A DNA stretch of 64,000 bases from an uncultured bacterium (GCA_963736115.1 CAVTNR010000008.1:160001-224000), one strand, 5' to 3'; counted from the first letter of the stretch, positions 26,638 to 46,401 are shown. Made by a program: numbers and translations. The notes: generated by a model from the letters alone, not told the origin.

Positions 26638-26654
26638 ATATACGAGTTTAAAAT

Positions 26655-26897: not shown

Positions 26898-26906
26898 TAT
26901 GTATCA

Positions 26907-26952
26907 TTCGATCGAATCCGGTATATGTATTATATTGCCGGATTCGATCGAA
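26907..26952. terminator. Long hairpin between convergent genes
   Basis: TTCGATCGAATCCGG / CCGGATTCGATCGAA perfect 15-bp inverted repeat. Confidence 0.65.
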
Positions 26953-26978
26953 CCATTATAATTAAATCCCGCGAACTT

Positions 26979-28139
26979 TTATTTATTTCCCAGCACTTCC
27001 CCCAGCTTCTCCGCGACGAAGTCGAGATCTTCCGTCGGGATGGTAAGTGGCGGGAGGAGGCGGATCACAGTCATGCCAGAGGGGAGCGTCAGCACGCCCT
27101 TTTCCGTCAGTGCCTGGATGAACGGTTTCGCCTTTTCCTTCAGTTCGATGCCGATCATCAGCCCGAGGCCGCGGACCTCCCGGATCAGACCGGAACGGAT
27201 GGCATTCAGCTTCTCCATCATATAGGCGCCCTTGGACGCGGCCTGCTCGTCGAGCCGCTCGCGCTTCATGAAGTCGATGGCCGCGTTCGCGGCCGCGCAG
27301 GCAAGCGGGTTGGCGCCGAATGTGGTGCCGTGCCGTCCCACGGGCGACTGAATCTTCTCAGAGCACAGCACCGCGCCCATGGGCACACCCCCGGCAATGG
27401 CCTTGGCGACGACCATCATATCGGGCAGCACGCCGAAATGCCCGCAGGCGAACCACTTGCCCGTGCGGCAGAATCCCGACTGAATCTCGTCCATGATCAG
27501 CAGGATGCCGCGCTCGTCGCAGAGGGCCCGGATCCGTTCAAAATATTCCTTTTTCCCGATATGGATGCCGCCTTCGCCCTGCACCGGCTCGAGCAGGACC
27601 GCGGCGGTTTTTTCGTTCACCTGGGCCAGGAGCGCCTCGAAATCATTGTACGGCACGTGGCGGAACCCGGGAACCAGGGGCTCGAAATCCTCCTTGTATT
27701 TCGGGTTGTGCGTCGCGGAGAGCGCCCCGAACGTGCGGCCGTGGAAGCTCCGCATGGCGCAGATGAACTCCGTTTTCTTTGTCGTGAAACGCGCGAACTT
27801 GAGCGCCGCCTCGACGGCTTCAGCGCCGGAATTGCAGAGAAAGGAGCGGTTCAGCCCAGAGGGCGCGACGGACGCGAGCTTCTCGAAGAGCCGGGCGCGC
27901 TGGTCGTTGTAGAAAATGCCCGAGCAGGTGATCAGCGTCTTCGCCTGGCTGGCCAGGGCAGCGGCCACGTCCGGGTTCGCGTGCCCCACGCTGGCCACGC
28001 CGTGGCCCGCGATGCAGTCCACATAGACGTTCCCCTGGTCGTCCCACAGACGGGCGTTCTCCCCGCGGACGATGCAGACGTCCCGCTTGGTGAACACGTC
28101 GAATTCATAGCGCCGTTCCAGATCGATCGATTCGCTCAT
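26979..28139 (-). CDS. lysJ: [LysW]-semialdehyde / acetylornithine aminotransferase (class III PLP)
   Basis: [54 protein letters not shown]; next to lysZ. Confidence 0.8.
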
Positions 28140-30515: not shown

Positions 30516-31082
30516 TCAGCGTATATGCAGAACCTGCCGCATGGTCGGGAGGATGAGAACCGCGGCCGCTCCGCCTGCGATCGCGGTGAACAGCTGGGGC
30601 AAGGCGAGGGCCGCTGCGGCCTGGGCCGGAACAGCCCGTCCCAGTATGAGCGGCATCCACCACGCGACCGCGGCCGCCAGCCAGGCGAATTTCACTCCAG
30701 CGGCCGGTAAAATCGCGAATGCGTCGGTCAAGCGGCTGACCGGTTTCTTTGGTGCGAGCCGCAATCTCCGGAAAGCGTGAAAGACCAGGACCAGGAGAAT
30801 ATTGCCGACAGCGATGACCGGCAGGAAAGGCCACAGCGGGGGCGGGAGCTGGCCCAGCAGGAGGGCCGGAAAAGGCGTCAGGCATCCGACTACGGCCGCG
30901 GTCCAGGGTCCGAAAAGGGCGGCGGACAGGAACAGGACGCAGTTGACAAATGTCCCGGTGACCGGCTGGGGCAGACCCAGGGCCTGGAAGGCCAGGGTCA
31001 GGCCCAGCATTACGCCGATACGGGTGATGAAAAGGGTTCCGTGTTCCGTGTTCCGGGTTCCGGGTTGAGAAGATGGTTTCAT
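30516..31082 (-). CDS. ECF transporter S component
   Basis: QPVTGTFVN, LTPFPA, PFLPVIAVGN, PQLFTAIAGG; multiple TM helices. Confidence 0.8.
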   Translation of the reverse strand: MKPSSQPGTRNTEHGTLFITRIGVMLGLTLAFQALGLPQPVTGTFVNCVLFLSAALFGPWTAAVVGCLTPFPALLLGQLPPPLWPFLPVIAVGNILLVLVFHAFRRLRLAPKKPVSRLTDAFAILPAAGVKFAWLAAAVAWWMPLILGRAVPAQAAAALALPQLFTAIAGGAAAVLILPTMRQVLHIR

Positions 31083-31270
31083 TCAAGACGACTCGTGTCT
31101 GTGACTGGTTTGAAAAACAGGGTTCCGGGTCGGGAATGAGGATTCATGACAATCCGTCCGCGGTTGAGTTTCTAAAAGTACGATGCCGAAAGTATGTCCG
31201 AAAGGCCCGCGAAAAGAAGCGGGCCATTTCGGACCTACAACTTGGAATACGGAACACGGAACTCGGAACC
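31035..31270. repeat. Heptamer inverted-repeat element H2 (GTTCCGK)n...(CGGAACN)n enclosing a family P palindrome
   Basis: Arms 31035-31066 and 31238-31270; P hairpin 31195-31238; other H2 copies at 59617-59660 and 61009-61090. Confidence 0.8.
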
Positions 31271-31277
31271 GCTGGTT

Positions 31278-31367
31278 TCACCACTCCGTCCTCACCCCGA
31301 CTGCGACATCCCTTCCCGGCCCGTCCCACCAGGTCACGCCCGAAAGCGGGTCCCGGACGCTCCGGTC
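31278..31367 (-). repeat. Orphan copy of the last 30 codons of the TonB-dependent receptor gene (direct repeat of 42715-42804)
   Basis: 79 of 90 nt identical by manual alignment; encodes DRSVRDPLSGVTWWDGPGRDVAVGVRTEW-stop. Confidence 0.93.
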
Positions 31368-33207
31368 AGGAGCCTGATGCGATCTCCCCGGCCGCAGCTC
31401 CCCATGTCGGAAAAAATACGGAATCCGTCGTCGCCGGGGCGTCCTCCGTCAGGCTTCCCCCGTATCGTTCGCGGCAAGTATGCAATATTTCCGAAAAACG
31501 GCCTTTTCCGAAGGGAGACGGAATCCGCCGGCTCTCCTGGGCGAAGGAAATGAGGATGCCGAGCCGGATGGGCCCTTTTTCCGCATATTCGAGGGCCATC
31601 CAGCGGTTTTGAGCGTCGCAGCGCGTCCGGCAGAACCGGCTTCCAAGCAGCCGCCGCGAGCGGATCCGAATCAGGTCTCTGTACAAAATCCACAGACGGG
31701 AACCCGGACTTCCTTCCGGAAAATCCCAGCGTAATTTTGAGTCCAGGAAAGTCTTTTCCGCAGCGGGGTCCGGAATCTCGGTCCAGCCGAAATGCGCGAA
31801 CTCCCGTTTTCTCCCTTCCCGGACGGCTCGGACCAGATCCGGATCGGAGTGGTCGATGAAATAATGAAAGGGCGTACGCTCGCCGTATTCCTGGCCCATA
31901 AATAAAAGCGGCGTGGCCGGGGATAACAGAAGAAGAAGGGCCGCGAGTTTCTGCTGTTCAAAATCGACCAGGGTGGAGAGCCGATCGCCCGAGGCCCGGT
32001 TGCCGACCTGGTCGTGATTCTGGACGCAGACGACGAGTTTCTCCCTGTCCAGGTCCCGGACCGGATTTCCGTGCCGTCTTCCGCGAAAGGTCGAATAGAT
32101 GCCGTCATACACAAAGCCGTCCTCGACGGCTTTGGCGATATCCCCGATTTTCCCGAAATCCTCGTAATACCCCTGCCGTTCGCCGGTGAGAACCGAATGC
32201 ACCGCATGATGAAAGTCGTCGCTCCATTGCGCCGACAATCCGTGCCCCCCCTGCGGTTCGGGGCGGATGATGCGGGAGTCGTTCAGGTCGCTTTCCGCGA
32301 TCACGTGGACGGCGCGCCCCGAATCATCCGCCAGCGCCTGAACGGCTTCGTTCAGTTCCCGCAGGATGTGCGTTGCGCTGAAATCGAAGATTCCATGAAC
32401 CGCGTCCAGCCGCAAGGCGTCGACGTGGTATTCACGGATCCAGAAGAGCGCGTTCTCGATCACGAAACGACGAACGGGATCACTCAGCCGGTCGTCGTAA
32501 TTGATCGCGTCGCCCCATGGCGTGTGGTACTTGGGCGTGAAGTACGGGCCGAAATCGTGCAGATAATTCCCCTCGGGCCCCAGATGGTTGTAAACCACGT
32601 CCAGGCAGACGGCGATCCCCCCGAGATGGCAGGCGTCGATCAGCTTTTTCAATGCATCCGGTCCCCCGTAGCTGTTCTGTACGGCGTACAGGCCGACGCC
32701 GTCATACCCCCAGTTTTTCCCGCCCGGAAACTGCGCCACCGGCATGATTTCCAGGCAGGTGATCCCCAGTCGCTGCAGATAGGGGATCTTGTCGATAATG
32801 GCCTGAAAAGTTCCCTCCGGCGAAAAAGTGCCCACGTGAACCTCGTAAAAAATCATGTCCCGAAGCGCCAGGCCTTTCCATTCATGGTCTTTCCATGAAT
32901 GCGCGCCGGGATCGACGACGGCGGAAGGGCCGTGAACGCCTTCGGGCTGAAAACGCGATGCGGGATCCGGCCGTTCCTTGACGCCGTCCAGGACATAGAC
33001 GTATTTCGCGCCCGAGAGATCCCCCGGGACCTCCACGTAAAAATATCCCTCCTGGTCCTTGGACATGGCGTGCCGGCTCCATTTTCCAGAAACGCACAGC
33101 TTGAGATCAACGGTGGAGCAAAAAGGAGCCCAGACGCGGAAGGCATACTGATGATGATCGTATCTGGCCGCACCCAGACGGCCGGCCCCGTCCGTTGCCG
33201 GTCTCAT
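31366..33207 (-). CDS. treZ: Malto-oligosyltrehalose trehalohydrolase
   Basis: FRVWAP, PDPASRFQPEGVHGPS, WGYDGV, DVVYNHLGPEGN, RLDAVH, QNHDQVGNR. Confidence 0.95.
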   Translation of the reverse strand: MRPATDGAGRLGAARYDHHQYAFRVWAPFCSTVDLKLCVSGKWSRHAMSKDQEGYFYVEVPGDLSGAKYVYVLDGVKERPDPASRFQPEGVHGPSAVVDPGAHSWKDHEWKGLALRDMIFYEVHVGTFSPEGTFQAIIDKIPYLQRLGITCLEIMPVAQFPGGKNWGYDGVGLYAVQNSYGGPDALKKLIDACHLGGIAVCLDVVYNHLGPEGNYLHDFGPYFTPKYHTPWGDAINYDDRLSDPVRRFVIENALFWIREYHVDALRLDAVHGIFDFSATHILRELNEAVQALADDSGRAVHVIAESDLNDSRIIRPEPQGGHGLSAQWSDDFHHAVHSVLTGERQGYYEDFGKIGDIAKAVEDGFVYDGIYSTFRGRRHGNPVRDLDREKLVVCVQNHDQVGNRASGDRLSTLVDFEQQKLAALLLLLSPATPLLFMGQEYGERTPFHYFIDHSDPDLVRAVREGRKREFAHFGWTEIPDPAAEKTFLDSKLRWDFPEGSPGSRLWILYRDLIRIRSRRLLGSRFCRTRCDAQNRWMALEYAEKGPIRLGILISFAQESRRIPSPFGKGRFSEILHTCRERYGGSLTEDAPATTDSVFFPTWGAAAGEIASGS

Positions 33208-36200
33208 GTTTCATCCGTGATGTTTGTCAGGAGTGCGGCTCCGTTCCAGTGAAACAGGTCGGCGGCCCTGATCACGGCGGTTTTTCCGCGCGCGATGACA
33301 TCCACGGATCCGGAGGTCATGATGTCCTTGAGTTTGCCCGGCAATTCGACGTCCTCCGGCCAGACGAGCTCCGTGCCGGTCAGAAAGTCGGCCCCGTTTT
33401 CCGCGGACGGAACAGCCGGCCACCGCGTGAAAAACCTTCCCGCAGCGGCCAACGCAAGGTGCCGGCCGCGTCTGCGGATGAAAGCGACGATACAATTTTC
33501 CCGGGGTCCCGTCACTTCCACCGGCACGTATTCCCCCCCGATGAACAGGTCCCTGTGAGCCTGACGGAACCGCAATCCGTTCAGGGTGAAGAACAGTTTG
33601 CCGGTTTTCAGGCCCTCCTCGGTCCACCGGGAAACCGTTCGCCCCCCGGGGTTTGCCCCGGACCTCTCCCCGGCGACCGAACGCAACGCCTGTTTCCGGG
33701 ATTCGAAATCAACCGGCCGGCGGTTGTCCGGGTCCACCAGGGAATAATTCCATGTTTCGTTGCCCTGATACAAGTCGACCACCCCGGGGGATGCGACCTT
33801 GAGGACGGTCGCCGAAAGCCCGTTGAGCTTCGCGTAAAACGAGATTTTCCTCTGGAACGGCAGAAAGCTTCTGTAAAAGGCGCTTTCTTTCCCCTGCAAC
33901 AGGACGGAAAAGATGAACCGCTTTACGGCTTCCTCGTACCCGGCGTCGGGCTGCACCCAATTCGTGTAGATTTTGGCTTCCCGTACGGATTTGAGCACAT
34001 ACTGCCAGATCCGTTCGATAAGCGGGTCGTTCCGGGATGCCTCGGCCTGTTCATCCGGCCAGATCCCGATCAGTGTCTGGTAGAAGAAGTATTCCGTGTT
34101 TTTCCTGGGCTCGGGATGCCCCTCGACCTCGGTTTTGAATCGGCAGTGATAACCCGCCCACTCGTGAATCCTCGCATCCCATTCGGCGGGGATTTCGCTC
34201 AGGACGTTGATCCGCATCCGGACGTCCTCGCTGCGTTTCGTGTCGTGAGTCGAGGTGGTCATCATGCTGTTCGGCCACCTCCGGTTGCGTTCGCGGTTGT
34301 GGGAATGGAAGTCGCTCCTGGAGTGGCCGAAAAAGAACGGATCCCCGCCGACTTCATTCAGAGAAACCAGACGGTTGTACACGTAGAACGAAGTGTCCTC
34401 GACTCCCTTGGCCATGATGGGTCCGGTCAGCTGCTGGAAGCGCAGTAAAAAGTCGCGATACAGTTTTTCCTCTTCGCTTCCGGGCTCGACGTTCAGGCGC
34501 AGGAGAAGCGCGTCGCGAAGAAAATCGAAAACCGCCGAGCTCAGGGCGGGCGTTTTCTTTCTGGCCTTGGCCACGGCCTCACGGATGTATCTTTCGTCTC
34601 TTTCGGACACGCTCGTGCTGGCCGGGGTGACATACGTGCGGTAGACGGGAAAACCCGCGATGACTTCCCGTATGGCGACCGTCAGGTCGTTTCGGGTATA
34701 GTCCCGGTATTTCCGGTTGGTTTCGGAAATCCGGTCCAGGCGATCGCCCAGGGCGTTGATTTCGCTGGCCATTGGAACGAGGCCGAAGAATTTTTTCTTG
34801 TTGTAAACCAGTTCGTCAAAATCGATCCGGTGTCCGATGAAGTTCCTGTAAAGCCCCGCGAAGGCCTCTTCGTGGGTCGAATCCACAAAAAGACCGTTGA
34901 GCACGTTCAGAAAATCATATCCGACAGTGCCGTGGACGTTCCAGTTCTCCGGCAACGGCTCTTTGCGGTCCAGAATCTTTTCCGCCACCACGTAAAAGGC
35001 CGTCATGGATGAAAATTCGTTGGAGAGGAGCCTGTCGATTTTATCCCGAAGGTCCTCGAGATCAAGCTCGACGGTTTCCCCGCCTTCCTCCCGGGAACGC
35101 TCCGTTTCGCCCTTCAGGATCATCTGCAGGAGATATTCCCGCTGAAGCCGCTGGAAATAGACGGGCGGGTCGTACAGCCCGTCCGGGTGATCGATCCGGA
35201 AGCCCTGAATTCTGCCTTCCTTGACCAATTGAAACAGGAATTCGTGATAATGCCTGAACACCTTCTCGTCTTCGATCCGGATCGCGGCAAGCTCGTTGAT
35301 GTCAAAAAACCGGCGGTAGTTGATTTCCTGCGAAGCCACGTTCCAGAAGGCCAGTCGATACGACTGGGCATTCAAGAGCCGATCCAGGTCGTCGAAACTC
35401 CGGGGATCCTTGATATCCCCGTTGAAATGAAGAATGCGGCTTTCGATGAAAAGCCGTACGGACTCGCAGCGATCCGCCAGAAGCCGCAGACGCTGTTTGG
35501 CGATTTCTTTTTCACGACTCCTTTCGAGAGTCCTTTCGGCTTCCGATTCGCTGGAGGCGGGCAGGTTTTTTAGCGCGGTCAGGACGCTCAAATACTCAAG
35601 ATAATCCGGATTTTCCGGGCGCATTTTTGTCCCCAGTGCGCCGTATGCGTCCGCCAGGATGAGCGCATACGTTTTAGGGTCCACCGGAAAACGGTGGTCG
35701 AAGTAGAGGAGGAAGAATTCGCCTGCCCGGTACGCGAGCCGTATTTCCTGATTCTCCAGGACGCGGCCGTAAAAATTGCCCAAAACCGGCAGCAGCACCT
35801 TTCCCCTGAGCTCCTGTTTGACGGGCGACCAATCGATGTCGAAATAGCGCGCGAACGGCGAACTGGGTCCGTTCTCCAGGACATCGTTCCACCAGGGATT
35901 GTTGTTTCCGGTCACGCCCATGTGGTTGGGCACGACGTCGACGATCTGGCCCAGGCTGTTCTCCGTCAGCGCGGCGCAGAAGGCATCGAACGCCTCGATG
36001 GGGCCGATTTCGGGATTGAGGCGGCCGGGATCGGTTATATTATAACCGTGCATGCTTCCGGGGGACGCCTGGAAATAGGGGGAGCAATAAACCGCCGCGA
36101 CGCCCAGTTCGCTGAAATACGGCGTCTGTTCCGTTGCGTCGCGGAACGTGAACGCCTGATTGAGCTGGATGCGGTAAACCGAAGCGGGAACGTAGGCTGC

Positions 36201-36308
36201 GTTGAGTCTCCGGTAGATCCACGACCGGATTTTTTCATCGCTCAGAGTTTTTCGGATCGGTTCCCTGTCAGGAGAGACGTTTTCGGCGTTTAGATGATTG
36301 TTGCGCAT
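33204..36308 (-). CDS. treY: Malto-oligosyltrehalose synthase
   Basis: YRIQ, GSMHGY, DVVPNHMG, INYRRFFDINEL, RIDHPDGL, AKGVEDT, STHDTKRSED, LVDPDNRRPVD. Confidence 0.95.
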   Translation of the reverse strand: MRNNHLNAENVSPDREPIRKTLSDEKIRSWIYRRLNAAYVPASVYRIQLNQAFTFRDATEQTPYFSELGVAAVYCSPYFQASPGSMHGYNITDPGRLNPEIGPIEAFDAFCAALTENSLGQIVDVVPNHMGVTGNNNPWWNDVLENGPSSPFARYFDIDWSPVKQELRGKVLLPVLGNFYGRVLENQEIRLAYRAGEFFLLYFDHRFPVDPKTYALILADAYGALGTKMRPENPDYLEYLSVLTALKNLPASSESEAERTLERSREKEIAKQRLRLLADRCESVRLFIESRILHFNGDIKDPRSFDDLDRLLNAQSYRLAFWNVASQEINYRRFFDINELAAIRIEDEKVFRHYHEFLFQLVKEGRIQGFRIDHPDGLYDPPVYFQRLQREYLLQMILKGETERSREEGGETVELDLEDLRDKIDRLLSNEFSSMTAFYVVAEKILDRKEPLPENWNVHGTVGYDFLNVLNGLFVDSTHEEAFAGLYRNFIGHRIDFDELVYNKKKFFGLVPMASEINALGDRLDRISETNRKYRDYTRNDLTVAIREVIAGFPVYRTYVTPASTSVSERDERYIREAVAKARKKTPALSSAVFDFLRDALLLRLNVEPGSEEEKLYRDFLLRFQQLTGPIMAKGVEDTSFYVYNRLVSLNEVGGDPFFFGHSRSDFHSHNRERNRRWPNSMMTTSTHDTKRSEDVRMRINVLSEIPAEWDARIHEWAGYHCRFKTEVEGHPEPRKNTEYFFYQTLIGIWPDEQAEASRNDPLIERIWQYVLKSVREAKIYTNWVQPDAGYEEAVKRFIFSVLLQGKESAFYRSFLPFQRKISFYAKLNGLSATVLKVASPGVVDLYQGNETWNYSLVDPDNRRPVDFESRKQALRSVAGERSGANPGGRTVSRWTEEGLKTGKLFFTLNGLRFRQAHRDLFIGGEYVPVEVTGPRENCIVAFIRRRGRHLALAAAGRFFTRWPAVPSAENGADFLTGTELVWPEDVELPGKLKDIMTSGSVDVIARGKTAVIRAADLFHWNGAALLTNITDET

Positions 36309-36389
36309 GGTGACTCCGCACGGATGAATGATAGCGTGCAATGAAAGGAACCGCCGGCGAAGATCCGGACGTCCGGTCCGTCAGGGACT

Positions 36390-38534
36390 TCAGGAATCCG
36401 CGAGTGTCCAGATGGCAAGCGAACGGTTCATCAGGCTGGTTGCCCGCCCCCCGGGGAGCGAAACGCGGCCCTGATTGGGGTCGGATGTGTCCATGACAAG
36501 CTCCCACACCCATTTCGGCCCGAAGGCGGGAAGAACGAAGGGGACATCATCGGCCGAGGCATTCATCATCAGCAGAATCGTGCTTCCCGCGATCCGGTCA
36601 CCGTATTCGTCGACTTCAGTCATGGCGTCCCCGGACATCACAACCCCTATGCATCGAACCAGTGCGGTGTTCCAGATATCGTCGGTCATTTCCCGGCCGT
36701 CGGTGTTGAGCCAGGTGATGTCCTTCACGTCCGCTCCCCGGATGAGACGTCCCTGGAAGAACTTTCGTCTGCGAAAGACCGCTTCCTGCTTCCTGAGACG
36801 GATGAGCCGACGGGTCACGTCGAGCATCTTCTCCTTTTGCGGCGTCAAGCGCCAATCCACCCAGCTCAGTTCGTTGTCCTGGCAATAGGTGTTGTTGTTT
36901 CCGCCTTGTGTGCGCCCGATCTCGTCGCCGGCCAGGATCATCGGAACACCCTGGGAGAGCAGAATCGTCGCCATCATATTCCTTTTCTGCCTTTCCCGAA
37001 GCGTCAGGATCGTCCTGTCTCCGGTGGGGCCTTCAACCCCGCAATTCCAGCTGTTGTTGTCGTCCGACCCGTCCGCGTTGTTTTCGCCGTTGGCCTCATT
37101 GTGCTTCTGGTTGTAACTGACAAGATCCTCGAGCGGAAAACCGTCGTGACAGGTGATAAAATTGATGCTCGCGTAAGGGCGCCGCCCGCTCTGTTCGTAG
37201 AGATCGCTGCTGCCGCTGAATCGCGTCGCGAATTCACCGACCTTCCCCCAGTCCCCTTTCCAGAAGCGGCGCATCAGATCCCGGTATTTGCCGTTCCATT
37301 CGGTCCATCCCACCGGGAAATTGCCGACCTGATAGCCGCCCTGTCCCAGATCCCAGGGTTCGGCGATCAACTTGACCTGAGAGAGCACCGGATCCTGCCG
37401 GATGACATCGAAAAACGCGCTCAGCTTGTCGACATCATACAGTTCCCGGGCCAGGGCGCTGGCCAGATCAAAACGGAAGCCGTCGACGTGCATCTCGAGC
37501 ACCCAATAACGCAGGCTATCCATGATCAGTTGGATGACGCGCGGCTGCTGCATGTTGAGGGTGTTGCCGCATCCGGTGAAATCCTGATAATGACGGGCGT
37601 TTTCCCGCGAAAGGCGATAGTAGACGGCGTTGTCCACACCCCGGAAGGAAAGCGTCGGGCCCAGCTGGTTGCCTTCTCCTGTATGATTGTATACGACGTC
37701 CAGGATGATCTCGATGCCCGCCTGGTGAAGGGCGCGGACCATTTGCTTGAATTCAGAAAGGCATTCCTGCGGAACCGCCGATGCGGCATACCGCGTGTCC
37801 GGCGCAAAAAAGGACAAGGTGTTGTAGCCCCAGTAATTGTTCAATCCTCTGGCGGTCAATTGCCGGTCATCGATGTGATGATGGACCGGCATGAGTTCGA
37901 CGGCCGTGATCCCCAGTTCCTTCAGGTATCGGATCACCGGTTCGGATGCCAGACCGGCATACGTTCCTCGCTGGGCGGCCGGCACGCGCGGATGCAGTTG
38001 CGTGAATCCCTTCACATGCAGCTCAAAGAGGATGGTCCGGTTCCATGGAATTCCGGGGGGGGAATCGTCCTTCCAGTCGAACGCCGGATCGACGACCACG
38101 GCCAGGGGAGCGAAAGCCGCATTGTCCCGTCCGTCGAAGGACAGGTCTCCGTTCGGATCTCCGATGGTGTAGCCGAACATTTCATCGCTCCACCTCACGC
38201 GGCGGCCGATCGCTTTGGCGTAGGGATCCAGAATGATCTTATGCGGATTGAACCGGTGCCCGTTTTCGGGCTGATACGGGCCGTGCACGCGGTATCCGTA
38301 GAGCTGTCCCGGCCGTGCATCCGGAAGGTAGCAGTGCCAGACCTGGTCTGTATTCTCCGTCATCGGAATCGTCCGGGATTCCCGATCGTCGCTTTCCGTA
38401 TCAAACAGACACAATTCGATTTTCGTCGCGTTTTCGGAATAGATGGTGAAATTGACCCCGTGACCGTCCCATGAGGCGCCCAGGGGAGCCGGGCGGCCGG
38501 GCCATACGCGTATTGCTTTCGAAGAATTATTCAT
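36390..38534 (-). CDS. glgX: Glycogen debranching enzyme
   Basis: PLGASWDG, NYWGYNT, DVVYNHTGEG, DGFRFDLA, IAEPWD, CHDGF, NNTYCQDN. Confidence 0.96.
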   Translation of the reverse strand: MNNSSKAIRVWPGRPAPLGASWDGHGVNFTIYSENATKIELCLFDTESDDRESRTIPMTENTDQVWHCYLPDARPGQLYGYRVHGPYQPENGHRFNPHKIILDPYAKAIGRRVRWSDEMFGYTIGDPNGDLSFDGRDNAAFAPLAVVVDPAFDWKDDSPPGIPWNRTILFELHVKGFTQLHPRVPAAQRGTYAGLASEPVIRYLKELGITAVELMPVHHHIDDRQLTARGLNNYWGYNTLSFFAPDTRYAASAVPQECLSEFKQMVRALHQAGIEIILDVVYNHTGEGNQLGPTLSFRGVDNAVYYRLSRENARHYQDFTGCGNTLNMQQPRVIQLIMDSLRYWVLEMHVDGFRFDLASALARELYDVDKLSAFFDVIRQDPVLSQVKLIAEPWDLGQGGYQVGNFPVGWTEWNGKYRDLMRRFWKGDWGKVGEFATRFSGSSDLYEQSGRRPYASINFITCHDGFPLEDLVSYNQKHNEANGENNADGSDDNNSWNCGVEGPTGDRTILTLRERQKRNMMATILLSQGVPMILAGDEIGRTQGGNNNTYCQDNELSWVDWRLTPQKEKMLDVTRRLIRLRKQEAVFRRRKFFQGRLIRGADVKDITWLNTDGREMTDDIWNTALVRCIGVVMSGDAMTEVDEYGDRIAGSTILLMMNASADDVPFVLPAFGPKWVWELVMDTSDPNQGRVSLPGGRATSLMNRSLAIWTLADS

Positions 38535-38752
38535 GTGTCGTCTCTCGTTGGCAGGACGGGGTGGTATCCGGGCGGGGATGGCCCCGTGTGGGACGTTCAG
38601 GGTTCCCGGAAGCGCTTCAAGCTTGCGGCTGCATTTTTGCGAAAGGGAATTATTCCCGCCTGCGGACGCGCTTCTCCAGGCCGTTTCAGTCGGTATCGGG
38701 GCGCGGCAGGACAGGATGGATCACGCCGTGCGGGTCCCTCCCGGGTGAACCC

Positions 38753-41700
38753 CTACTCCGGTTTCCCCTCAGTCGCAGCCGGGACCTCCCCGTCCTGCGC
38801 CAGGATATGCAGGATGCCGCGGGCCGCGATGATAATCCGGTCGGCGTGCGAATCGATTGCATGCCCGAAGGCATGGAGGGCCCGGTCCAGCATGTATATC
38901 CGGAGGAGCATGTCCAGCTCGTCCGGATCTTTCGGCAGAATGTCCTCCTTGCCGACGGATTCGATATAGGACTTCAGGAATGTTTCGCCGGTCCGCCTTC
39001 GCCAGTTCCGTGCGGCGGTTTCCAGAACGGCGATATCGACATCCCGCAGGGAAGCGTCATGAAAAAGCGTGAAGTAAGCCGCACAGTGAAAGGACCACAT
39101 CATGCCGGCGATGTCGCGAAGGACGGAACGCTTGATCCGCCGTTCGCTGATCGGTCGGGTCGGATCGCCCTCGAAATCGGTGATGACAAAGTCCTTCCCC
39201 GTGAAAAGAACCTGGCCCAGATGATAATCCCCGTGAATGCGGATTCTTTTTGCCGTGAAATTTTTCCGCAAAATCAGCTGAAACCGTTCACGGATTGCCC
39301 TTTCCGATTCGAGGATCGGCGAGATTTCGCGTTGAATCTCCGGCGGGAACCGGCCCATCCTTCGGCGCAGGACGGCCAGCAGCAGCCGCGCCTGGCTTCC
39401 CATGGACTGATAAATCGAGCGTTGATAGAGAAACGTAAAGGGTTCGGGCGTCCAATCGGCCTGATTGGGCGCCGAAGCCAGCAGCAGGTGCATTTCGGCG
39501 GTTCTCCGTCCCAGGCGTTCAATCATTTCGACGAACAAAGGGTCAATCGCCGACTGGGCCGCCGCGGACGCGGTTGTGCCGGAACCGGCCGGCGCGTGCG
39601 GCGCCGCACCGCCCTTGGCCGCGGCCAGTGCGCGATCCAAATAACTTCGGACCTGATCGGTCGCGTAATCCCAGGCGTCCGACTGGGCCTGGACATGCCC
39701 CTGCAGGACGGCCATCGTCATCGGTTCCGTTCCGGCTCGGTGGAATTCGATGGAACCCGCATAGGCGGGCGCAGACCCGAATTTTTTCTGTTCGCTCAGA
39801 AAGCGGGACAACTCCGTTTCCGGATGGACTCCCTCGTCCAGTTTTCGGAAGACTTTCATGAAGAAACCGTTATCCAGGACGATCGACGTGTTGCTCCGGT
39901 CGTGCTTGAGGACTTTCGATGAATAATTCCGGGACGGATGATCGCCGATCAGGGATTTCAGCCGTTTCCCGGGGAATCCGGCGATCACGGAACCGTTTCT
40001 TGAGATTCTCTTTTTTTGGGTGATGAGCTCGAAGAGCGTTCTGTGAAATGCGCGATCATAGAGGCCGTCGTAAAGATAGCCTTCGGCTCCGCCCGCCGAC
40101 AGCCGGCAGATGATGCTCTGCGGAAAATCCCTGACGACATTCGGGTCTTCCTTCGAGCCGACGAAGGACAGGGGGAGCAGATAGGTTTCCGAGGGCCCCG
40201 TCGCGACCTGAACGATCAAGATGGCGATTCTCGTTCCCTGCGCATCCGATGGTACAACCTCGGAGACATGGACGGACCGGATCCGTTTGCCTCCGCCGTC
40301 GAACCATCGGCACCGTTTCAGATACGCCGGCAGGATGTCCGAGTCAAGACGATGAACGATGTCCGGAAGGAATATTTCCGGCCACGGGTTCTCCGCCCGC
40401 AAGAGGCCCTGTTCGATATGCGAAAAATCCGTCATATCGGATTTTTTCAGGATGAACCAGAAATGGCTGTATGGCCCGAGCGTCATCGGATAGGGATCCG
40501 CCGTAATGCGGGGAAAGGCGTTCTGGCTGAAAATTTCCTCGGGGACGTAATCCCGGTATCCCTTCAGATCCAGTTCCACGGATTGGGCGTACCGGGAAAG
40601 GTTGACGACGACCAGAATAATTTCGCTCCCGAGGATCCGGAGAAAACCGAGCACCTTGGAGTCGTCCGGCATGAGAAAAACCGTCGTCCCCCTGCTGAAA
40701 GCCCGGAGTTTCCGGCGCATGGCGATCACGCGCCGCATCCACCACAGCGGGGAGGACAGATTGTTCTCCTGCGTTTCCACGTTGATCGTCTCGTAATGGT
40801 ACTCCGAATCGATGACGACCGGCAGATACAGCTCCTGCGGGTTGACCCGGGAAAAGCCGGCATTCCGGTCCGGGCTCCATTGCATCGGAGTCCGGACCCC
40901 GTCCCGGTCGCCCAGGAATCGGTTGTCACCCATGCCGATTTCGTCGCCGTAATAGAGGACGGGCGTCCCCGGAAGAGAGAACAGAAGGATGTTGGCCAGC
41001 TCGATCTTGCGTCTGTTGTTCCCCAGTAGCGGCGCGAGCCTGCGGCGTATGCCCGAATTGATTTTAGACCGGGAATCCTTCGCGTAGGCCCGGTACATGT
41101 AGTCTCTTTCCTCGTCGGTCACCATCTCCAGGGTCAGCTCGTCGTGATTGCGAAGGAAAACGGCCCACTGGCAATTGGAGGGGATGTCCGGCGTCTGATC
41201 CAGGATGTCCACGATGGGGAAACGATCCTCCATCTGCAGGCTCATGAAAACGCGCGGCATGATCGGAAAATGGAAGGCCATCTGACATTCGTCTCCGCAG
41301 CCGAAATAAGCGGCGGCGTCCTCCGGCCACTGATTGGCTTCGGCCAGGAGCATTCGGTCCGGAAATCCGGAATCGATGTGTCGACGCAGTTTCTTCAGGA
41401 ATTCATGCGTCTCGGGCAGATTCTCGCAATTGGTCCCTTCCCGCTCGAACAGATACGGAACCGCATCCAGCCGCAGGCCGTCCACGCCCAGATCCAGCCA
41501 GAAATCCGCGATTCTGAGTATCTCCTCCTGAACGTCGGGATTCTCGAAATTCAGATCCGGCTGGTGGGAATAAAAACGGTGCCAGAAATAGGCCTTGGCC
41601 CGCTCATCCCAGGTCCAGTTCGATTGCTCGAAGTCCCCGAAAATGACGCGGGCGTCGGGATAGCGTTCGGGAGTGTCGCTCCATACGTAGTAATCGCGGT

Positions 41701-42094
41701 GATTGGAATGCGGCTGCGCCCGGCGTGCCCTCTGAAACCAGGGATGCTGATCGGACGTATGGTTGATGACCAGTTCCGTAATGACGCGGAGTCCGCGATG
41801 ATGGGCTTCCCTCAGGAATTCCCTGAAATCCTTCAGTGTTCCGTACTTGGGATGAACGTCGTAATAGTCCGATATATCATAACCGTCATCCTTTAGAGGG
41901 GAGGGATAAAAGGGAAGCAGCCAGATCGCCGATACGCCCAGGTTTTTCAGGTAATCCAGTTTTCGGGTCAGACCCCTGAAATCGCCGATTCCGTCGCCCG
42001 AACTGTCAAGAAAGGTTTTAATATGCAGCTGGTAAATGACGGCGTCTTTATACCAGAGCGGGTCGTGTTCAGGAGGTGTATTCATTGAATACAT
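38753..42094 (-). CDS. treS: Trehalose synthase fused to maltokinase (TreS-Pep2)
   Basis: [35 protein letters not shown]; C-terminal kinase with [10 protein letters not shown] and DFEG. Confidence 0.95.
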
Positions 42095-42714
42095 CGCATA
42101 TTTCCCCGGTTGTCACAATCGAAGTTCTGCTCGGGTGATGACACCGGACGTCGTTCCGAACGAATCCGGCGCTTCCGGTTTTACCCGGATCCGGATGAAC
42201 CGGATGTGACTGGCCATTCATGCATCCGTTCCGGCCTGATTTTCCGCTGACCCGGCTTGTCCGCAGGCAGGCACGACGAACGCGTCCGTGTGAAACGGGA
42301 GGCCGGACCGGGGCGGGTCCTGTTTCGCTGATCCGCTATGGCCGTGAGCCGGAACGGGCGTTTCCCGCTGCCCGCCAGGCGAAAGCGGGTATTCCGGGCC
42401 GGTTGGCATATGGAGAGCGGCGGCCCATTCTGTCCGTCCCGGGCCAGACACCGCCCGGGTGTCCTTCCCATTGCGGCTCCGCGAAGGATCCCGAAATTTC
42501 CAGCATTGGGATCGCTCCGCTTAAAACAATACGACATCCAGGTTATAAAATCAAGCGGGAAATGAAACTACCGGCTGGGCGGCCGTCCCCGGAGAGGGCG
42601 CGCCCGTATCGTCCGCCGTTGAACGACGGGGACCCATCCACGCGTACTTGAACGCGTCCCGGTTCAGCCGCAACCCGCCGGAACGCCGTGCTTTCAAAGG
42701 TTCGGCCGCGTTCC

Positions 42715-44787
42715 TCACCACTCCGTCCTCACCCCGACCACCACGTCCCTCCCAGGCCCGTCCCACCACGTCACGCCGGACAGCGGGTCGCGCACGCTCC
42801 GGTCCATGACATTCCGCACGCTGAGAGACACGCGAAGCGGCATGCCTGCCGTGAACCTGCCCCGGAAAACGGATCCGAAATACAGGTCCAGCAATACGGC
42901 GCCCCCGGTTTGGAGCTCATTCTCGGCCGCGTCCTTCCGGTCCGCGGACAGGCGGAGATCCGCGCCCGCGGTCCATTCGAACGGCGCGCCGTTCAGACGG
43001 ACGGAAAGCGTCCCCCTGAGAGGCGGAACGCCGGGAAGGGGCGCATCTTCCGTTTCGTCCCGGCCTTCCACCGCGGATACGATCAGGCCGAAGCGGGCAT
43101 GACCGGACGCGGCCCAGGATGCGCCGGCTTCCCCGCCGGTCAGGAGCGCGCGGCCCACGTTCGCGTAAGCGAATGTGTCCCTGGCCGCGGTGAGCGTCCG
43201 CAGAACAATGAGCCGGTCAATGCGGTTCCGGAAGAGAGAAAATTCTCCTTCAACGCGGTCCGACTTCCATTTTACGCCCGCGTCCAGATTCAGGCTCGTT
43301 TCGGAGCGGAGTTCCGGATTGCCGATCACGAATCCGGCCTGGCCCGATCCGCGGAAATACCGCTCCTGCGGATCCGGTGAACGGAACGCGCGGCCGACAT
43401 TGGCGAACAGGCGGAGAGGTCCGGCCGGCCTGCAGAGAACACCGGCATTTCCGGACCAGTTCGACTCCGATTCCCTGCGGTCCGATTCGACGAAGGTGCC
43501 GGCCGTTCCCCCGGCCCGGCTCAGGAAAAGGTCGGTCCGGCCGCCGGCTTGCACTGATATAAAGCGTGAGGCTGCGAGCTCGGCGTTGACGAAAACCCCC
43601 GCTCCGGACTGCGTGAGACGGGGCAGGGGAGGCGTCCGGTCAGGGGGAGGATCCTTCAGCACGGCGCCGGACGCGTTGCGGAGCAGGAGATCCGCGATCC
43701 GTTCGGAGACGACCCGGTGCGTGAATGCCTCCCCTCCGGCGATCACGTAATGCGGGCCCAGCACCCAGTCGGACTGGCCGCTGAAGCCCGCGGCCCTCAG
43801 GCGCCGTTCCGCGTTCTGGGTTTGTTCAACGAACGCCGGGCCCTTCGGTTTTCCGGAAATCAAAGCCTCAAAACTCCGGTATTCCTTCTGACCGTAGGTC
43901 CGGACGCGGACGCCTTTCCACGCGCCCTTCGGCCGACGTATTTCGAATTCCGCGGTGAGTCGGTCGCGGTCATAGGCGTTGAAACCGGCCCGGGCCGCGT
44001 ACCGGTCCGCGGGCACGCCGACCTTGTCCATCCGGTCCGTTTGGCCGCGGAACGTCAGGCGCACGCCCCGGCCCGGTTTCAGGACCGCTTCGGCCTGAAA
44101 CGCGTTGCCCCGGAAAGCCGTATTGGCCAGCCTGCCCATGGGCGTCCGGAGATCCTCGGCTGTGCGGCGGGCCGCATTCACGGATAGAGAAGCTCTGCGG
44201 CCGTCCGCGGCCAGGGATGCCGTACCGTTCCACTGGCTGTTCGCGGACAGGTATTGGACGCCGGACCGGCCTGACACACCTGAGGGCCGCGGCCCGGGCG
44301 TCGGCGCCGGTCCTGTGATGAGGTTCACGACCCCGGCCACCGCGTCCGATCCGTACAGGACCGAGGCCGGACCCCGGATCACCTCGATCCGGACGATCTG
44401 GTCCGCGTCCACGAGAAAGGGGTGCTCGCCGTACCCGCGCAGGATGTCGAGGCGGAGCCCGTCCACGAGCAGGAGCACGCGCGAACCGGAAAGGCCGCGT
44501 ATCGACCACCGGCCCGTCCATGGGCCGACGGACTGCGTTGCGGCGCCGGGAAGGATCGCGGCCGCGTCCGACGCGGTCGCGACACCGTCCGACCACAGGC
44601 GGTCCGCGGGTATGGCGGACAGGGGCCGGTTCGTTTCCATGGCGTCCGACTCGCGCCGGTTCGCTGTGACAAAGACTTCCGGCATCCGGTAACGCACGGA
44701 ATCGGGGGGAGGCACGGATGCGGTCTGGCCGGACAGGGACACAGCCGCGGTCAGGAAGAGAATGAGGGAATGCGTTCGGGCGGACAT
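42715..44787 (-). CDS. TonB-dependent receptor (heme/cobalamin-like substrate class, substrate unknown)
   Basis: EVFVTANR TonB box, SIRGL..RVLLLVDG, RIEVIRGPASVLYGSDA, FRSP, GNPELRSE, terminal W. Confidence 0.92.
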   Translation of the reverse strand: MSARTHSLILFLTAAVSLSGQTASVPPPDSVRYRMPEVFVTANRRESDAMETNRPLSAIPADRLWSDGVATASDAAAILPGAATQSVGPWTGRWSIRGLSGSRVLLLVDGLRLDILRGYGEHPFLVDADQIVRIEVIRGPASVLYGSDAVAGVVNLITGPAPTPGPRPSGVSGRSGVQYLSANSQWNGTASLAADGRRASLSVNAARRTAEDLRTPMGRLANTAFRGNAFQAEAVLKPGRGVRLTFRGQTDRMDKVGVPADRYAARAGFNAYDRDRLTAEFEIRRPKGAWKGVRVRTYGQKEYRSFEALISGKPKGPAFVEQTQNAERRLRAAGFSGQSDWVLGPHYVIAGGEAFTHRVVSERIADLLLRNASGAVLKDPPPDRTPPLPRLTQSGAGVFVNAELAASRFISVQAGGRTDLFLSRAGGTAGTFVESDRRESESNWSGNAGVLCRPAGPLRLFANVGRAFRSPDPQERYFRGSGQAGFVIGNPELRSETSLNLDAGVKWKSDRVEGEFSLFRNRIDRLIVLRTLTAARDTFAYANVGRALLTGGEAGASWAASGHARFGLIVSAVEGRDETEDAPLPGVPPLRGTLSVRLNGAPFEWTAGADLRLSADRKDAAENELQTGGAVLLDLYFGSVFRGRFTAGMPLRVSLSVRNVMDRSVRDPLSGVTWWDGPGRDVVVGVRTEW

Positions 44788-44872: not shown

Positions 44873-46009
44873 TCACTCCGTCGGAATCGGGCGCAGCACA
44901 ACGGTGAACGTGCTTCCCCGGTCCGGTTCGCTTTCGACGGAGACGTCCCCGCCGTACATCAGCGCGAGTTTCTTCACGATGGCGAGGCCGAGGCCGGAGC
45001 CCAGGATGCTCCGGGTTTTCTCGTTCTTGATGCGGACGAACTCCCGGAACAGCATGGCGGTCTCCTCCGGGGTCAACCCGATGCCGGTGTCCCGGACCGT
45101 CAGCCGGGCGGTTCCGTTCTCGTCCGAGAGAAGGATGTCCACGCGGCCGCCGTCGCGGTTGTATTTCACAGCGTTGGTGATCAGGTTGTTGAGGATCATC
45201 TCGATCTCGCCCGCGTCGCAGCGGAACCGGAATGCCGCGGGCGCTTCCACGGCGATCGTGACGCCTTTTTCCCCGGCCTGCGGCAAAACGGTTTCGACGG
45301 CGGTTCTCAGGACGGACGTCAGGTCCTGTTCGGCGGCCTCGCGGCGCTTCGCCCCCGATTCGATGCGGGTCAGATCGAGCAGGTCGTGGATGATCTTGCG
45401 CATGCCCGTGAGGCGGAGGAGGCTGCGGTTCAGGGGCTCGTCGTAGTCGGACAGCGAGTCGCCCAGGGTCCGGTCGCGGATCATGTGGAGATACCCTTCC
45501 ACCGCGTTCAGGGGCGCCTTCAGTTCGTGCCCGAGCACGGAGATGAACTGGAACCGCACCTTGCGCTGTTCCCGGGCGAGCTTTTTCACCTGCCGCGCGA
45601 GGAGGAGGTTCTGCGCGGCCTTGGTCAGCGTTTTGCGGAGTTCGTCCGGCGTGAAGGGCTTGGCGAGAAAATCGAAGGCGCCGCCCTTGATCGCGCTCAC
45701 CGCGGTTTCGAGCGACGCGTAGGCGGTGATCATCAGCGTGACCGATTCGGACAGTTCCGGCCGGAACCGTTCCAGTATCTCCAGCCCGGTGGTATCCGGC
45801 AGTTTGTAGTCGAGCAGGAGGACGTCGGGCGCCGCGGACCGTATCTTTTCCCCGGCCTCGGCGCCGCTCTCCGCGGTTTCCACTTCGAAACCGAACGTCT
45901 CGTCCATGTCGGGGATGCGGAACTCGAACCGGTCCAGCGCGCGGCGAATGCCCTCGCGCATGCCGAGTTCATCATCGACGACCAGCGTGCGGAGCCGCTC
46001 CACGGTCAC
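44873..46009 (-). CDS. Hybrid receiver-histidine kinase
   Basis: VVDDE, LLDYKLPD, AKPF; HELKAPL, NAVKYN, DTGIG, GSGLGL. Confidence 0.92.
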   Translation of the reverse strand: MTVERLRTLVVDDELGMREGIRRALDRFEFRIPDMDETFGFEVETAESGAEAGEKIRSAAPDVLLLDYKLPDTTGLEILERFRPELSESVTLMITAYASLETAVSAIKGGAFDFLAKPFTPDELRKTLTKAAQNLLLARQVKKLAREQRKVRFQFISVLGHELKAPLNAVEGYLHMIRDRTLGDSLSDYDEPLNRSLLRLTGMRKIIHDLLDLTRIESGAKRREAAEQDLTSVLRTAVETVLPQAGEKGVTIAVEAPAAFRFRCDAGEIEMILNNLITNAVKYNRDGGRVDILLSDENGTARLTVRDTGIGLTPEETAMLFREFVRIKNEKTRSILGSGLGLAIVKKLALMYGGDVSVESEPDRGSTFTVVLRPIPTE

Positions 46010-46401
46010 TTCCCCCCGAGCAGGCGGCGCATCTCGCGCTCCAGCTGTTCGAAGCGGACGGGTTTCGAGAGCAGGGCGTCGGCCTTGACCCATGACCGTT
46101 CCTCGTCCGTGGCCGCGTCGAATTCCATGCCCGTTTCGGCCGTCACGGCCGTCACGAGGATGACCGGAATCGAGGGGTCGGTCTTCTTGATGTGGTACGA
46201 AAGCGCGAACCCGCCGTCCGTGTGCTCCATCATGAGGTCCACGACGGCGAGGTCGGGTTTCAGTTCGCGGAGCTTCTCCTCGGCCTCCCGCTGGCCGCCC
46301 GCGGTGACCACCCGGTACCCGGCCCGCTTCAGCATGGTTTCCATCTGAAACAGAAAGTCGGGATCGTCGTCCACCACGAGAATGGTCTGATTTTCAGTCA
46401 T
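46006..46401 (-). CDS. Single-domain response regulator
   Basis: ILVVDDD, VDLMME, VTAV, KPV. Confidence 0.92.
   Translation of the reverse strand: MTENQTILVVDDDPDFLFQMETMLKRAGYRVVTAGGQREAEEKLRELKPDLAVVDLMMEHTDGGFALSYHIKKTDPSIPVILVTAVTAETGMEFDAATDEERSWVKADALLSKPVRFEQLEREMRRLLGGK

What the first reader, a model, noticed from the sequence alone, without database searches (positions are those of the whole stretch)
31278..42804. 11.3-kb trehalose/glycogen island inserted in the 3' end of a TonB receptor gene, with a recoded replacement tail and no integrase
Seen: the last 90 nt of the receptor gene (42715-42804) recur in direct orientation at 31278-31367, starting within the treZ stop codon. Of 11 differences, 9 are synonymous third-position changes and 2 make one Val/Ala change, so both copies evolved under protein selection. 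Removing the intervening DNA would place the receptor directly upstream of the ECF S-component gene, a plausible ancestral uptake operon. Between the copies lie only treS, glgX, treY and treZ. Established: elements integrating into protein genes carry a replacement 3' end. Inference: a cargo-only island mobilised in trans or captured by short-homology recombination, using an unusual target gene.
Basis: partly seen in the sequence, partly recalled or inferred. Interest (0 to 1): 0.75.

Follow-up and report, generated by a model that had tools for sequence, protein, structure and literature searches.

The report
Trehalose operon inserted behind duplicated receptor tail
An 11.4-kb block of four trehalose/glycogen genes was inserted between an outer-membrane receptor gene and its conserved transporter partner, bringing a second copy of the receptor's last 29 codons but no recombinase of its own; it is a clean, single example of a known type of event.

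Summary
A 90-nt direct repeat (31278-31367 and 42715-42804, 79/90 identical) flanks treS-mak, glgX, treY and treZ, and the genome has only these two copies.

All three congeneric genomes held show the empty site: the receptor gene is followed directly by the ECF S-component gene. The orphan copy's downstream DNA is colinear with their spacer. Receptor-to-S-component adjacency is kept in 10 of 11 relatives with an ortholog.

Ten of the 11 differences between the copies fall at third codon positions (P about 0.001 under duplication in place with a neutral orphan). The one amino-acid change is at a site that varies naturally in functional orthologs. So both copies have a coding history, and one came from a related lineage.

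The cargo is foreign. TreZ was not found in the congeners, its best relative anywhere is 70% identical, and in a tree it sits with an Omnitrophota sequence.

There is no integrase in the island or in its 620-bp leader. No second instance or other cargo at this tail was found.

The mechanism is unresolved: host homologous recombination at the tail (about 0.5) against a trans-acting integrase, CIME-like (about 0.3). Mobility could not be tested because no sequencing runs were listed. Moderate interest.

The parts
42715..44787 (-). TonB-dependent receptor gene (690 aa), intact; heme/hemoglobin-receptor-like, below the family cut-off
   Evidence: Pfam Plug 2.1e-19 and TonB_dep_Rec_b-barrel 1.2e-40. 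NCBIfam TonB-hemin 198 bits, below the 316.85 cut-off. Orthologs 86-90% identical in G001-G003.
42715..42804 (-). Receptor-linked copy of the last 29 codons plus stop; followed by island-specific DNA
   Evidence: Differs at 6, 6 and 8 of 90 nt from the tails of G001, G002 and G003.
42095..42714 (-). 620-bp island leader between the receptor stop and the treS start. It is unique in the genome and has no family match. It is presumed to hold the operon's promoter or regulatory region (inference).
   Evidence: No Pfam hit at E<=1 in 7 frames. No other copy in the genome or in the tre loci of other organisms. No sigma-70 or terminator consensus. Not alignable to relatives.
38753..42094 (-). treS-mak fusion (trehalose synthase plus maltokinase), 1113 aa
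   Evidence: NCBIfam treS_nterm 887.7 bits (cut-off 678) and TreS_Cterm 407.6 bits (cut-off 375). Pfam Alpha-amylase and Mak_N_cap.
36390..38534 (-). glgX glycogen debranching enzyme, 714 aa
   Evidence: NCBIfam glgX_debranch 1055 bits (cut-off 641). 70% identical to the colinear gene in L032.
33204..36341 (-). treY malto-oligosyltrehalose synthase (ORF of 1045 aa; the family match starts near residue 48)
   Evidence: NCBIfam trehalose_TreY 883.6 bits (cut-off 499).
31366..33207 (-). treZ malto-oligosyltrehalose trehalohydrolase, 613 aa. It is complete to its natural C-terminus, and its TGA stop overlaps the first 2 nt of the orphan copy.
   Evidence: NCBIfam trehalose_TreZ 733 bits (cut-off 539). 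The C-terminal alignment with 12 homologs ends within a few residues of theirs. Sequence.
31278..31367 (-). Orphan copy of the receptor's last 29 codons plus stop. It is not part of any gene and is contiguous with the native spacer.
   Evidence: Differs at 9, 9 and 10 of 90 nt from the tails of G001, G002 and G003.
31083..31277 (-). Native receptor-to-S-component spacer, colinear with the empty sites of congeners. It contains a GC hairpin, and heptad repeat arrays form an inverted repeat (31238-31270 with 31035-31067).
   Evidence: Alignment. Inverted repeat I1. Consensus fold with compensatory changes.
30516..31082 (-). ECF-type S-component gene, the conserved downstream partner of the receptor
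   Evidence: Pfam ECF_trnsprt 37.4 bits (cut-off 30.7). Adjacent to the receptor in 10 of 11 relatives.

Best explanation
This is a lineage-specific insertion of a horizontally acquired trehalose/alpha-glucan operon (treS-mak, glgX, treY, treZ, with a 620-bp leader) into a conserved receptor-plus-ECF-S-component gene pair.

The incoming DNA carried its own copy of the receptor's last 29 codons, taken from a functional receptor gene of a related lineage at about genus-level distance. Recombination at this 90-nt homology joined one copy to the resident receptor, which stays intact. The other copy was left as a dead orphan next to the native spacer.

The island encodes no recombinase. I consider host homologous recombination the most likely route. 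That could be a single (Campbell-type) crossover with a circular molecule carrying the tail, or a one-ended homologous anchor plus an illegitimate join (homology-facilitated illegitimate recombination).

Shown: the repeat, the insertion, the empty sites, the foreign origin of the cargo, the coding history of both copies, and the absence of a recombinase. Inferred: the donor, the recombination route, and that the island is now a fixed passenger which gives this lineage glycogen-to-trehalose conversion.
For: Empty site in 3 of 3 congeners, with orphan-side colinearity to their spacer. Receptor-to-S-component adjacency in 10 of 11 relatives with an ortholog.

The two copies differ at 11 of 90 nt, 10 of them at third codon positions: P=1.3e-4 if uniform, and 0.001 in 20,000 simulations of duplication in place with a neutral orphan. 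The only amino-acid difference (V/A) is at a site that is V, A or T in intact orthologs P0127, P0134, P0128 and P0129.

The copies' identity (88%) matches the interspecies identity of this gene in the genus (85-89%), so the second tail came from a close relative and not from the distant source of the cargo.

The cargo is foreign. treZ was not found in G001-G003 (completeness 96, 76 and 84%). The best TreZ relative among 5.8 billion proteins is 70% identical. TreZ is sister to an Omnitrophota MAG sequence (SH-aLRT 99) and lies apart from the same-phylum and same-family rows. That MAG has a colinear glgX-treY-treZ at 70, 63 and 64% identity.

No recombinase domain was found in the island ORFs or in 7 frames of the leader. 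The genome has only 3 Phage_integrase matches over the cut-off and 1 resolvase, none on this contig. The homology ends exactly at the receptor stop codon and at the treZ stop codon. A glycogen synthase is present elsewhere in the genome, so a substrate is plausible.
Against: Nothing distinguishes host recombination from a site-specific integrase acting in trans. A replacement 3' end that differs by synonymous changes is the classic signature of integrase-type elements.

RecA-type recombination across 90 nt at 88% identity (longest exact runs 24, 14 and 11 nt) would be inefficient.

The joins lie exactly at two stop codons, which looks tidier than expected for an illegitimate join.

Polarising the differences with the three relatives gives a mosaic: the receptor copy is unique at positions 27, 60 and 63, the orphan is unique at 15, 24, 36, 65 and 66, and 3 sites are ambiguous. 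This fits a crossover near positions 37-59 only if three sites are explained away, and it fits a wholly foreign receptor copy equally well.

No donor, no second instance and no circular or empty form in the same population was seen.

The island's base composition is typical of the genome (GC3 at the 38th-46th percentile), so composition gives no independent sign of recent arrival.
Confidence: 0.5

Rival explanations
1. The island is an integrase-less remnant or satellite of a site-specific integrative element, comparable to a cis-mobilizable element (CIME). The two 90-nt copies would be attL and attR. An integrase encoded elsewhere, or since lost, would have catalysed integration into the receptor's 3' end, with the element-borne tail restoring the gene.
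For: Direct repeats that include the 3' end of the target gene, an intact target gene and an empty site in relatives are the standard anatomy of such elements. The definition is in passages of the review PMC5704250 read. The first 11 nt of the repeat are identical in both copies and could hold a crossover core. The genome holds a third tyrosine-recombinase match on C12, interrupted by one TGA, and a small serine recombinase on C17.
Against: No integrase or remnant was found in the island or the leader. No other element or cargo sits at this tail in 3 of 3 congeners or in the 7 more distant loci where the pair is adjacent. None of 160 tre loci from other organisms carries the tail, the receptor or the S-component gene. 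The left boundary lies inside the treZ stop codon, so an attP arm would have to lie within the treZ coding sequence. Two of the three Phage_integrase matches over the cut-off have open frames of about 340 aa, and I take them for XerC/D-like housekeeping recombinases from size alone. That assignment was not tested.
Confidence: 0.3
2. A single illegitimate insertion duplicated 90 nt of the resident receptor tail in place. The copies diverged later, helped by allelic replacement of one flank through homologous recombination with an island-free relative.
For: It needs no tail-carrying donor. Both copies fall within the range of genus tails (6-10 differences from G001-G003). The receptor gene shows higher third-position divergence from G001 (0.219) than its neighbours do (0.06-0.17), which could reflect an imported allele.
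Against: Duplication in place with a neutrally decaying orphan gives 10 or more of 11 third-position differences in only 0.1% of simulations. No known bacterial insertion process makes a 90-nt target duplication (from my own knowledge, not tested here). It needs a further interspecies replacement event to explain 12% divergence.
Confidence: 0.1
3. The island with its two tails is ancestral to the genus and was lost from the other species by recombination between the repeats.
For: Recombination between 90-nt direct repeats would leave exactly the empty site seen, with a hybrid tail. The mosaic sharing of variants between each copy and the relatives is compatible with this.
Against: It requires at least two or three independent losses, since G000 is closest to G001 at this locus while G002 and G003 also lack the island. 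The 7 more distant relatives with an adjacent pair also lack it. TreZ was not found in any congener.
Confidence: 0.05
4. The structure is an assembly artefact. A circular or other-strain tre segment sharing the tail was threaded into the chromosome of a metagenome-assembled genome.
For: The assembly looks like a metagenome-assembled genome (31 contigs, 87% complete). The copies share exact runs of 24, 14 and 11 nt. No reads could be laid.
Against: The treZ/orphan junction has no shared sequence across it, so it must exist in reads. Shared runs of 24 nt or less are shorter than the final k-mers of common assemblers (my own knowledge). The island's composition matches the genome. The block sits in the middle of a 265-kb contig.
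Confidence: 0.05

Closest known systems
Cis-mobilizable elements (CIMEs) and integrative mobilizable/conjugative elements inserted in the 3' end of protein genes (passages of the review PMC5704250 read)
   Same: The inserted block is flanked by direct repeats, one of which forms the 3' end of the target gene so that the gene stays intact. Relatives have an empty site. Like a CIME, the block carries no integration or transfer genes.
   Different: No cognate integrase-bearing element using this site was found. The target is a TonB-dependent receptor tail rather than a tRNA or housekeeping gene. The repeats are long (90 nt) and only 88% identical. One boundary lies inside the stop codon of a cargo gene. 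att function is untested.
C-terminal displacement with orphaned 3' fragments in Rhs, CDI and T6SS effector loci, proposed to arise by homology-facilitated illegitimate recombination (passages of PMC5361080 read; the primary HFIR papers were seen only in its reference list)
   Same: New DNA enters behind a conserved upstream gene segment that serves as the homologous anchor. The resident 3' segment is pushed downstream and survives as an orphan. No integrase is involved.
   Different: Here the displaced and the incoming 3' ends encode the same protein tail (1 difference in 29 residues), not alternative toxin tips. The insert is a metabolic operon, not an effector-immunity module. There is a single displacement, not an array.
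treY-treZ-glgX-treS trehalose/alpha-glucan gene clusters
   Same: All four enzymes score above NCBIfam equivalog cut-offs. glgX-treY-treZ is colinear with an Omnitrophota MAG locus.
   Different: No close relative exists (at most 70% identity for TreZ). A GlgE N-domain match was not found in this 87%-complete genome. The location inside a receptor/transporter pair is unique among the 160 tre loci examined.

Membership tests
Site-specific integrative island (ICE/IME/prophage-like) | [quoted passage not shown] | tested here: met
   90-nt repeats, 79/90 identical; one is the receptor's 3' end.
Site-specific integrative island (ICE/IME/prophage-like) | Element-encoded integrase or recombinase | tested here: not met
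   No recombinase family in the island ORFs or in 7 frames of the 620-bp leader at E<=1.
Site-specific integrative island (ICE/IME/prophage-like) | Unoccupied target site in related genomes | tested here: met
   3 of 3 congeners have the receptor directly followed by the S-component gene.
Site-specific integrative island (ICE/IME/prophage-like) | Excision to a circular form and regeneration of the empty site | not testable with these tools
   No sequencing run was listed for the island.
Cis-mobilizable element (CIME) | Has lost integration and transfer genes but retains attL and attR | tested here: inconclusive
   Mobility genes are absent and flanking repeats are present. Whether the repeats act as att sites is unknown.
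Cis-mobilizable element (CIME) | A related integrase-bearing element uses the same att site | tested here: not met
   No other element at this tail in 3 congeners or in 7 more distant adjacent pairs. No tail next to 160 other tre loci. Sampling of this clade is thin.
Homology-facilitated illegitimate recombination / 3'-end displacement | Displaced resident 3' segment retained downstream as an orphan | tested here: met
   The orphan copy is contiguous with the native spacer.
Homology-facilitated illegitimate recombination / 3'-end displacement | Incoming segment carries a homologous anchor from a related donor | tested here: inconclusive
   The copies differ almost only synonymously and at interspecies level. 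The donor and the extent of any donor tract in the receptor were not identified.
Homology-facilitated illegitimate recombination / 3'-end displacement | Illegitimate junction at microhomology | not testable with these tools
   This needs the donor sequence downstream of treZ, which is not available.
TreY/TreZ/GlgX/TreS-Mak pathway | Each protein scores above the curated equivalog cut-off | tested here: met
   TreS_N 887.7/678, TreS_C 407.6/375, GlgX 1055/641, TreY 883.6/499, TreZ 733/539 bits.
TonB-dependent receptor | Plug domain, 22-strand barrel domain, and a C-terminal strand ending in an aromatic residue | tested here: met
   Pfam Plug and TonB_dep_Rec_b-barrel. Both tail copies end ...VGVRTEW. 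That a terminal aromatic residue is characteristic is from my own knowledge.

The most novel reading that the evidence does not exclude
The 90-nt receptor tail is itself the whole integration module. On this reading the block is a recombinase-free operon cassette that carries a working copy of its target gene's last two beta-strands. It would move between members of this uncultured genus by host homologous recombination, excising and re-integrating through the flanking tails and re-sorting tail variants each time. The essential C-terminal targeting strand of an outer-membrane receptor would then serve as a safe, conserved landing pad.
Probability: 0.2. Interest if true: 0.65.

Novelty: new member of a known kind. 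Interest (0 to 1): 0.45.

Why it matters
This is a clean natural example, with empty sites in hand, of how a complete metabolic operon can be placed inside a conserved gene pair without harming the upstream gene and without any mobility gene of its own.

If host recombination at a borrowed gene tail is the route, then short pieces of conserved genes can act as addresses for operon transfer between related species of uncultured bacteria. Such events would be invisible to island finders that look for integrases or skewed composition.

For the organism, the insert is its only TreY/TreZ/GlgX/TreS-Mak set. It is not found in the three congeners, so it plausibly marks a niche difference in stress or osmotic tolerance through trehalose. 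That link to niche is an inference.

The insert also separates a receptor from an ECF S-component gene that are otherwise almost always adjacent in this order, a pairing that deserves study in its own right.

Tried and rejected
Sequencing runs: none was listed for window 33000-42900. Spanning reads, circle junctions and empty-site reads could therefore not be examined, and read laying was not used.

Metagenome scan with the receptor protein: 97 pattern matches, none confirmed as a relative.

Genome-collection scan with TreZ: 80 loci kept, best 64%. In all 160 tre loci, no receptor, S-component or tail match was found (tail hits all at E>=0.075).

Tandem-paralog remnant: rejected because of the empty sites. 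Frameshift or readthrough joining TreZ to the orphan tail: considered from the sequence and rejected as making no biological sense; it was not tested further.

Composition as evidence of foreignness: the island's GC (0.57-0.59) is below its immediate flanks. However, its GC3 lies at the 38th-46th percentile of the genome's long ORFs (crude ORF set), so this argument was dropped.

Remnant integrase in the 620-bp leader: none found. Rfam over 26000-50000: only one sub-threshold chance match. Promoter and terminator consensus scans at both junctions: nothing.

Genome-wide screen for other gene-tail duplications: of 114 same-contig direct repeat pairs (50-400 nt long, 2-80 kb apart), 6 passed a filter requiring one copy in a long ORF and the other not. 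Only the focal pair has both copies ending in the stop codon of the shared frame. I judged the other five to be non-coding repeats by eye.

Recombination-tract search in the receptor with sliding windows against G001-G003: no clear breakpoint.

Earlier findings of this scan: none near this place.

Literature: a search combining TonB-dependent receptor and island terms failed on term syntax and was not re-run. I therefore make no claim that this target is unreported.


Full report
OBSERVATION

The repeat is real. The repeat finder reports one two-copy family of 90 nt at 31278-31367 and 42715-42804, in direct orientation, 88% identical and 11,437 nt apart. Aligning both copies with their flanks shows that similarity stops abruptly on both sides. 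A search of the whole assembly finds only these two copies. The assembly is G000: 3.34 Mb, 31 contigs, 87% complete, with the window in the middle of the 265-kb contig C8.

All genes here are on the minus strand. Position 42715-42804 is the end of an intact 690-aa TonB-dependent receptor gene with Plug and barrel domains. Both copies translate to 29 residues plus TGA and differ only by Val/Ala.

The orphan copy begins inside the TGA stop of treZ. It lies in a different frame and has no usable upstream ORF. Between the copies lie a 620-bp leader and four genes. These genes score above NCBIfam equivalog cut-offs as TreS-maltokinase, GlgX, TreY and TreZ.

IS IT AN INSERTION?

Yes. The three other species of the genus that are held (G001-G003) have receptor orthologs at 86-90% amino-acid identity. 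In all three the receptor is followed directly by the ECF S-component gene and then by the same glycosyltransferase, amidotransferase and kinase genes. No tre genes lie between.

A junction alignment shows that the DNA downstream of the orphan copy is colinear with the congeners' receptor-to-S-component spacer, best with G001. The DNA downstream of the receptor-linked copy aligns to nothing in them.

Among more distant relatives with a receptor ortholog (37-43% identity), 7 of 8 also have the S-component gene immediately downstream. Overall, adjacency holds in 10 of 11; the exception is G035, where nothing was seen within the 1.5-kb flank that was fetched. The tandem-paralog alternative is contradicted.

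IS THE CARGO FOREIGN?

treZ was not found in G001-G003 (completeness 96, 76 and 84%), and it matched in only 5 of the 40 relatives searched at E<=1e-30. All four island genes are single-copy in G000.

The best TreZ relative among 5.8 billion clustered proteins is 70% identical. Among species-representative genomes the best is 64%, in an Omnitrophota MAG whose glgX-treY-treZ is colinear with the island at 70, 63 and 64% identity.

I built a quick maximum-likelihood tree of 86 TreZ rows (the window's TreZ plus 85 tblastn segments of at least 380 aligned residues). In it the window's TreZ is sister to that Omnitrophota sequence (SH-aLRT 99). It lies apart from the same-phylum rows and from the long-branched same-family row.

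Composition gives no independent signal. The island's GC (0.57-0.59) is below its immediate flanks, but its GC3 sits at the 38th-46th percentile of the genome's long ORFs.

WHAT THE TWO TAILS SAY

Of the 11 differences, 10 are at third codon positions and one is at a second position. This has P=1.3e-4 under uniform placement. It occurred in 0.1% of 20,000 simulations in which a duplication in place is followed by neutral decay of the orphan and purifying selection on the receptor copy.

The one amino-acid difference falls at a residue that is V, A or T in intact orthologs from other lineages (P0127 ...DVALGVRTEW, P0134 ...NVAVG..., P0128 and P0129 ...DVTVG...). Both copies therefore carry the marks of evolution as coding sequence, and their divergence mostly predates their coming together.

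Their identity (88%) equals the interspecies identity of this gene within the genus (85-89%; third-position divergence 0.22-0.245). So the second tail came from a close relative's receptor gene, not from the distant source of the tre genes.

Which copy is the newcomer is known only from position. Against the three congeners, the receptor copy is unique at positions 27, 60 and 63, and the orphan is unique at 15, 24, 36, 65 and 66. Three sites are ambiguous. This mosaic fits a crossover around positions 37-59 with three later changes. It fits a wholly imported receptor-linked copy equally well.

MECHANISM

No recombinase family is found in any island ORF or in 7 reading frames of the leader at E<=1. 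The leader is unique in the genome. The genome has three Phage_integrase matches over the cut-off: two with open frames of about 340 aa, and one on C12 interrupted by a TGA. It also has one small resolvase. None is on this contig.

The homology is bounded exactly by the treZ stop codon and the receptor stop codon. treZ is complete to its natural end when compared with 12 homologs.

A genome-wide screen found no other gene-tail duplication of this kind. Of 114 candidate repeat pairs, 6 passed the ORF filter, and only this one has both copies ending in a stop.

I favour host homologous recombination at the tail (confidence 0.5). The route would be either a Campbell-type single crossover with a circular molecule bearing the tail, or homology-facilitated illegitimate recombination of the kind invoked for orphaned 3' ends in T6SS and Rhs loci (passages of PMC5361080).

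The main rival (0.3) is site-specific integration by an integrase acting in trans or since lost. That would make this a CIME-like element as defined in passages of PMC5704250. The anatomy fits, but no cognate element was found.

Three minor rivals remain: duplication in place with later allelic replacement (0.1), ancestral presence with repeated loss (0.05), and assembly artefact (0.05).

WHAT IT DOES

The function is inferred from the families. GlgX debranches glycogen, and TreY and TreZ convert the resulting maltooligosaccharides to trehalose. TreS-Mak interconverts trehalose and maltose and phosphorylates maltose.

A glycogen synthase is present elsewhere in the genome. A GlgE N-domain match was not found in this 87%-complete genome. 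The receptor stays intact.

The S-component gene keeps its native upstream spacer, including a conserved long-range inverted repeat. It now lies 11.6 kb from the receptor.

LIMITS

No sequencing run was listed, so excision, circles and assembly support are untested. The genus has only four sampled species. The contexts of the nearest receptor and TreZ relatives in metagenomes could not be fetched. No literature search on this specific target gene was completed (one search failed), so I do not claim it is unreported.

VERDICT

It is a well-documented single case of a known kind of event, a repeat-flanked island that restores the 3' end of its target gene. The unusual points are the target, the lack of a recombinase, and a replacement tail borrowed from a relative. 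Interest is moderate (0.45).

Noticed in passing
window 31035-31067 and 31238-31270 (also L023, L024, L025): Arrays of about four heptad repeats (GTTCCGN) start about 10 nt after the receptor stop codon. Their reverse complement lies at the start of the S-component gene, so together they form a 33-nt inverted repeat that encloses a spacer of variable length. In G003 both arms have changed to GTTCAA/TTGAAC units, which keeps the pairing. The consensus fold has 11 of 49 pairs with compensatory changes. No Rfam match. It may be a regulatory RNA or DNA structure coupling the two genes.
   Followed up: partly
window 30516-31082 with 42715-44787; loci L004-L013: A TonB-dependent receptor (heme-receptor-like, below cut-off) is paired with an ECF-type S-component gene immediately downstream in 10 of 11 relatives across several families. 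This pairing of an outer-membrane receptor with an ECF substrate-capture subunit is unusual. The substrate is unknown (no NCBIfam match for the S component).
   Followed up: partly
window 26000-26999: A sharp low-GC patch (GC 0.30 against about 0.6 around it) contains a 201-aa ORF (26032-26637) with an N-terminal hydrophobic segment and a Cys/Gly-rich C-terminus. It lies between a LacI-type regulator ORF and the aminotransferase gene and may be a separate small foreign insert.
   Followed up: no
window 46453-48513 (minus strand): A 686-aa protein combines an [FeFe]-hydrogenase large-subunit domain and ferredoxin-type Fe-S domains with HisKA and HATPase domains, which suggests a sensory hydrogenase-like histidine kinase. 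It is followed by a response-regulator/kinase hybrid (44873-46093) just upstream of the receptor. The arrangement is conserved in G001-G003.
   Followed up: no
window 42715-44787 against L023-L025: The receptor gene has higher third-position divergence from G001 (0.219) than the neighbouring genes do (0.06-0.17). This may reflect faster evolution or an imported allele linked to the island's arrival.
   Followed up: partly
G000:C12:325019-325573: A tyrosine-recombinase (Phage_integrase) match in a 372-aa frame interrupted by one TGA. It may be a decayed integrase of another element and is the only such match in the genome with an interrupted frame.
   Followed up: no
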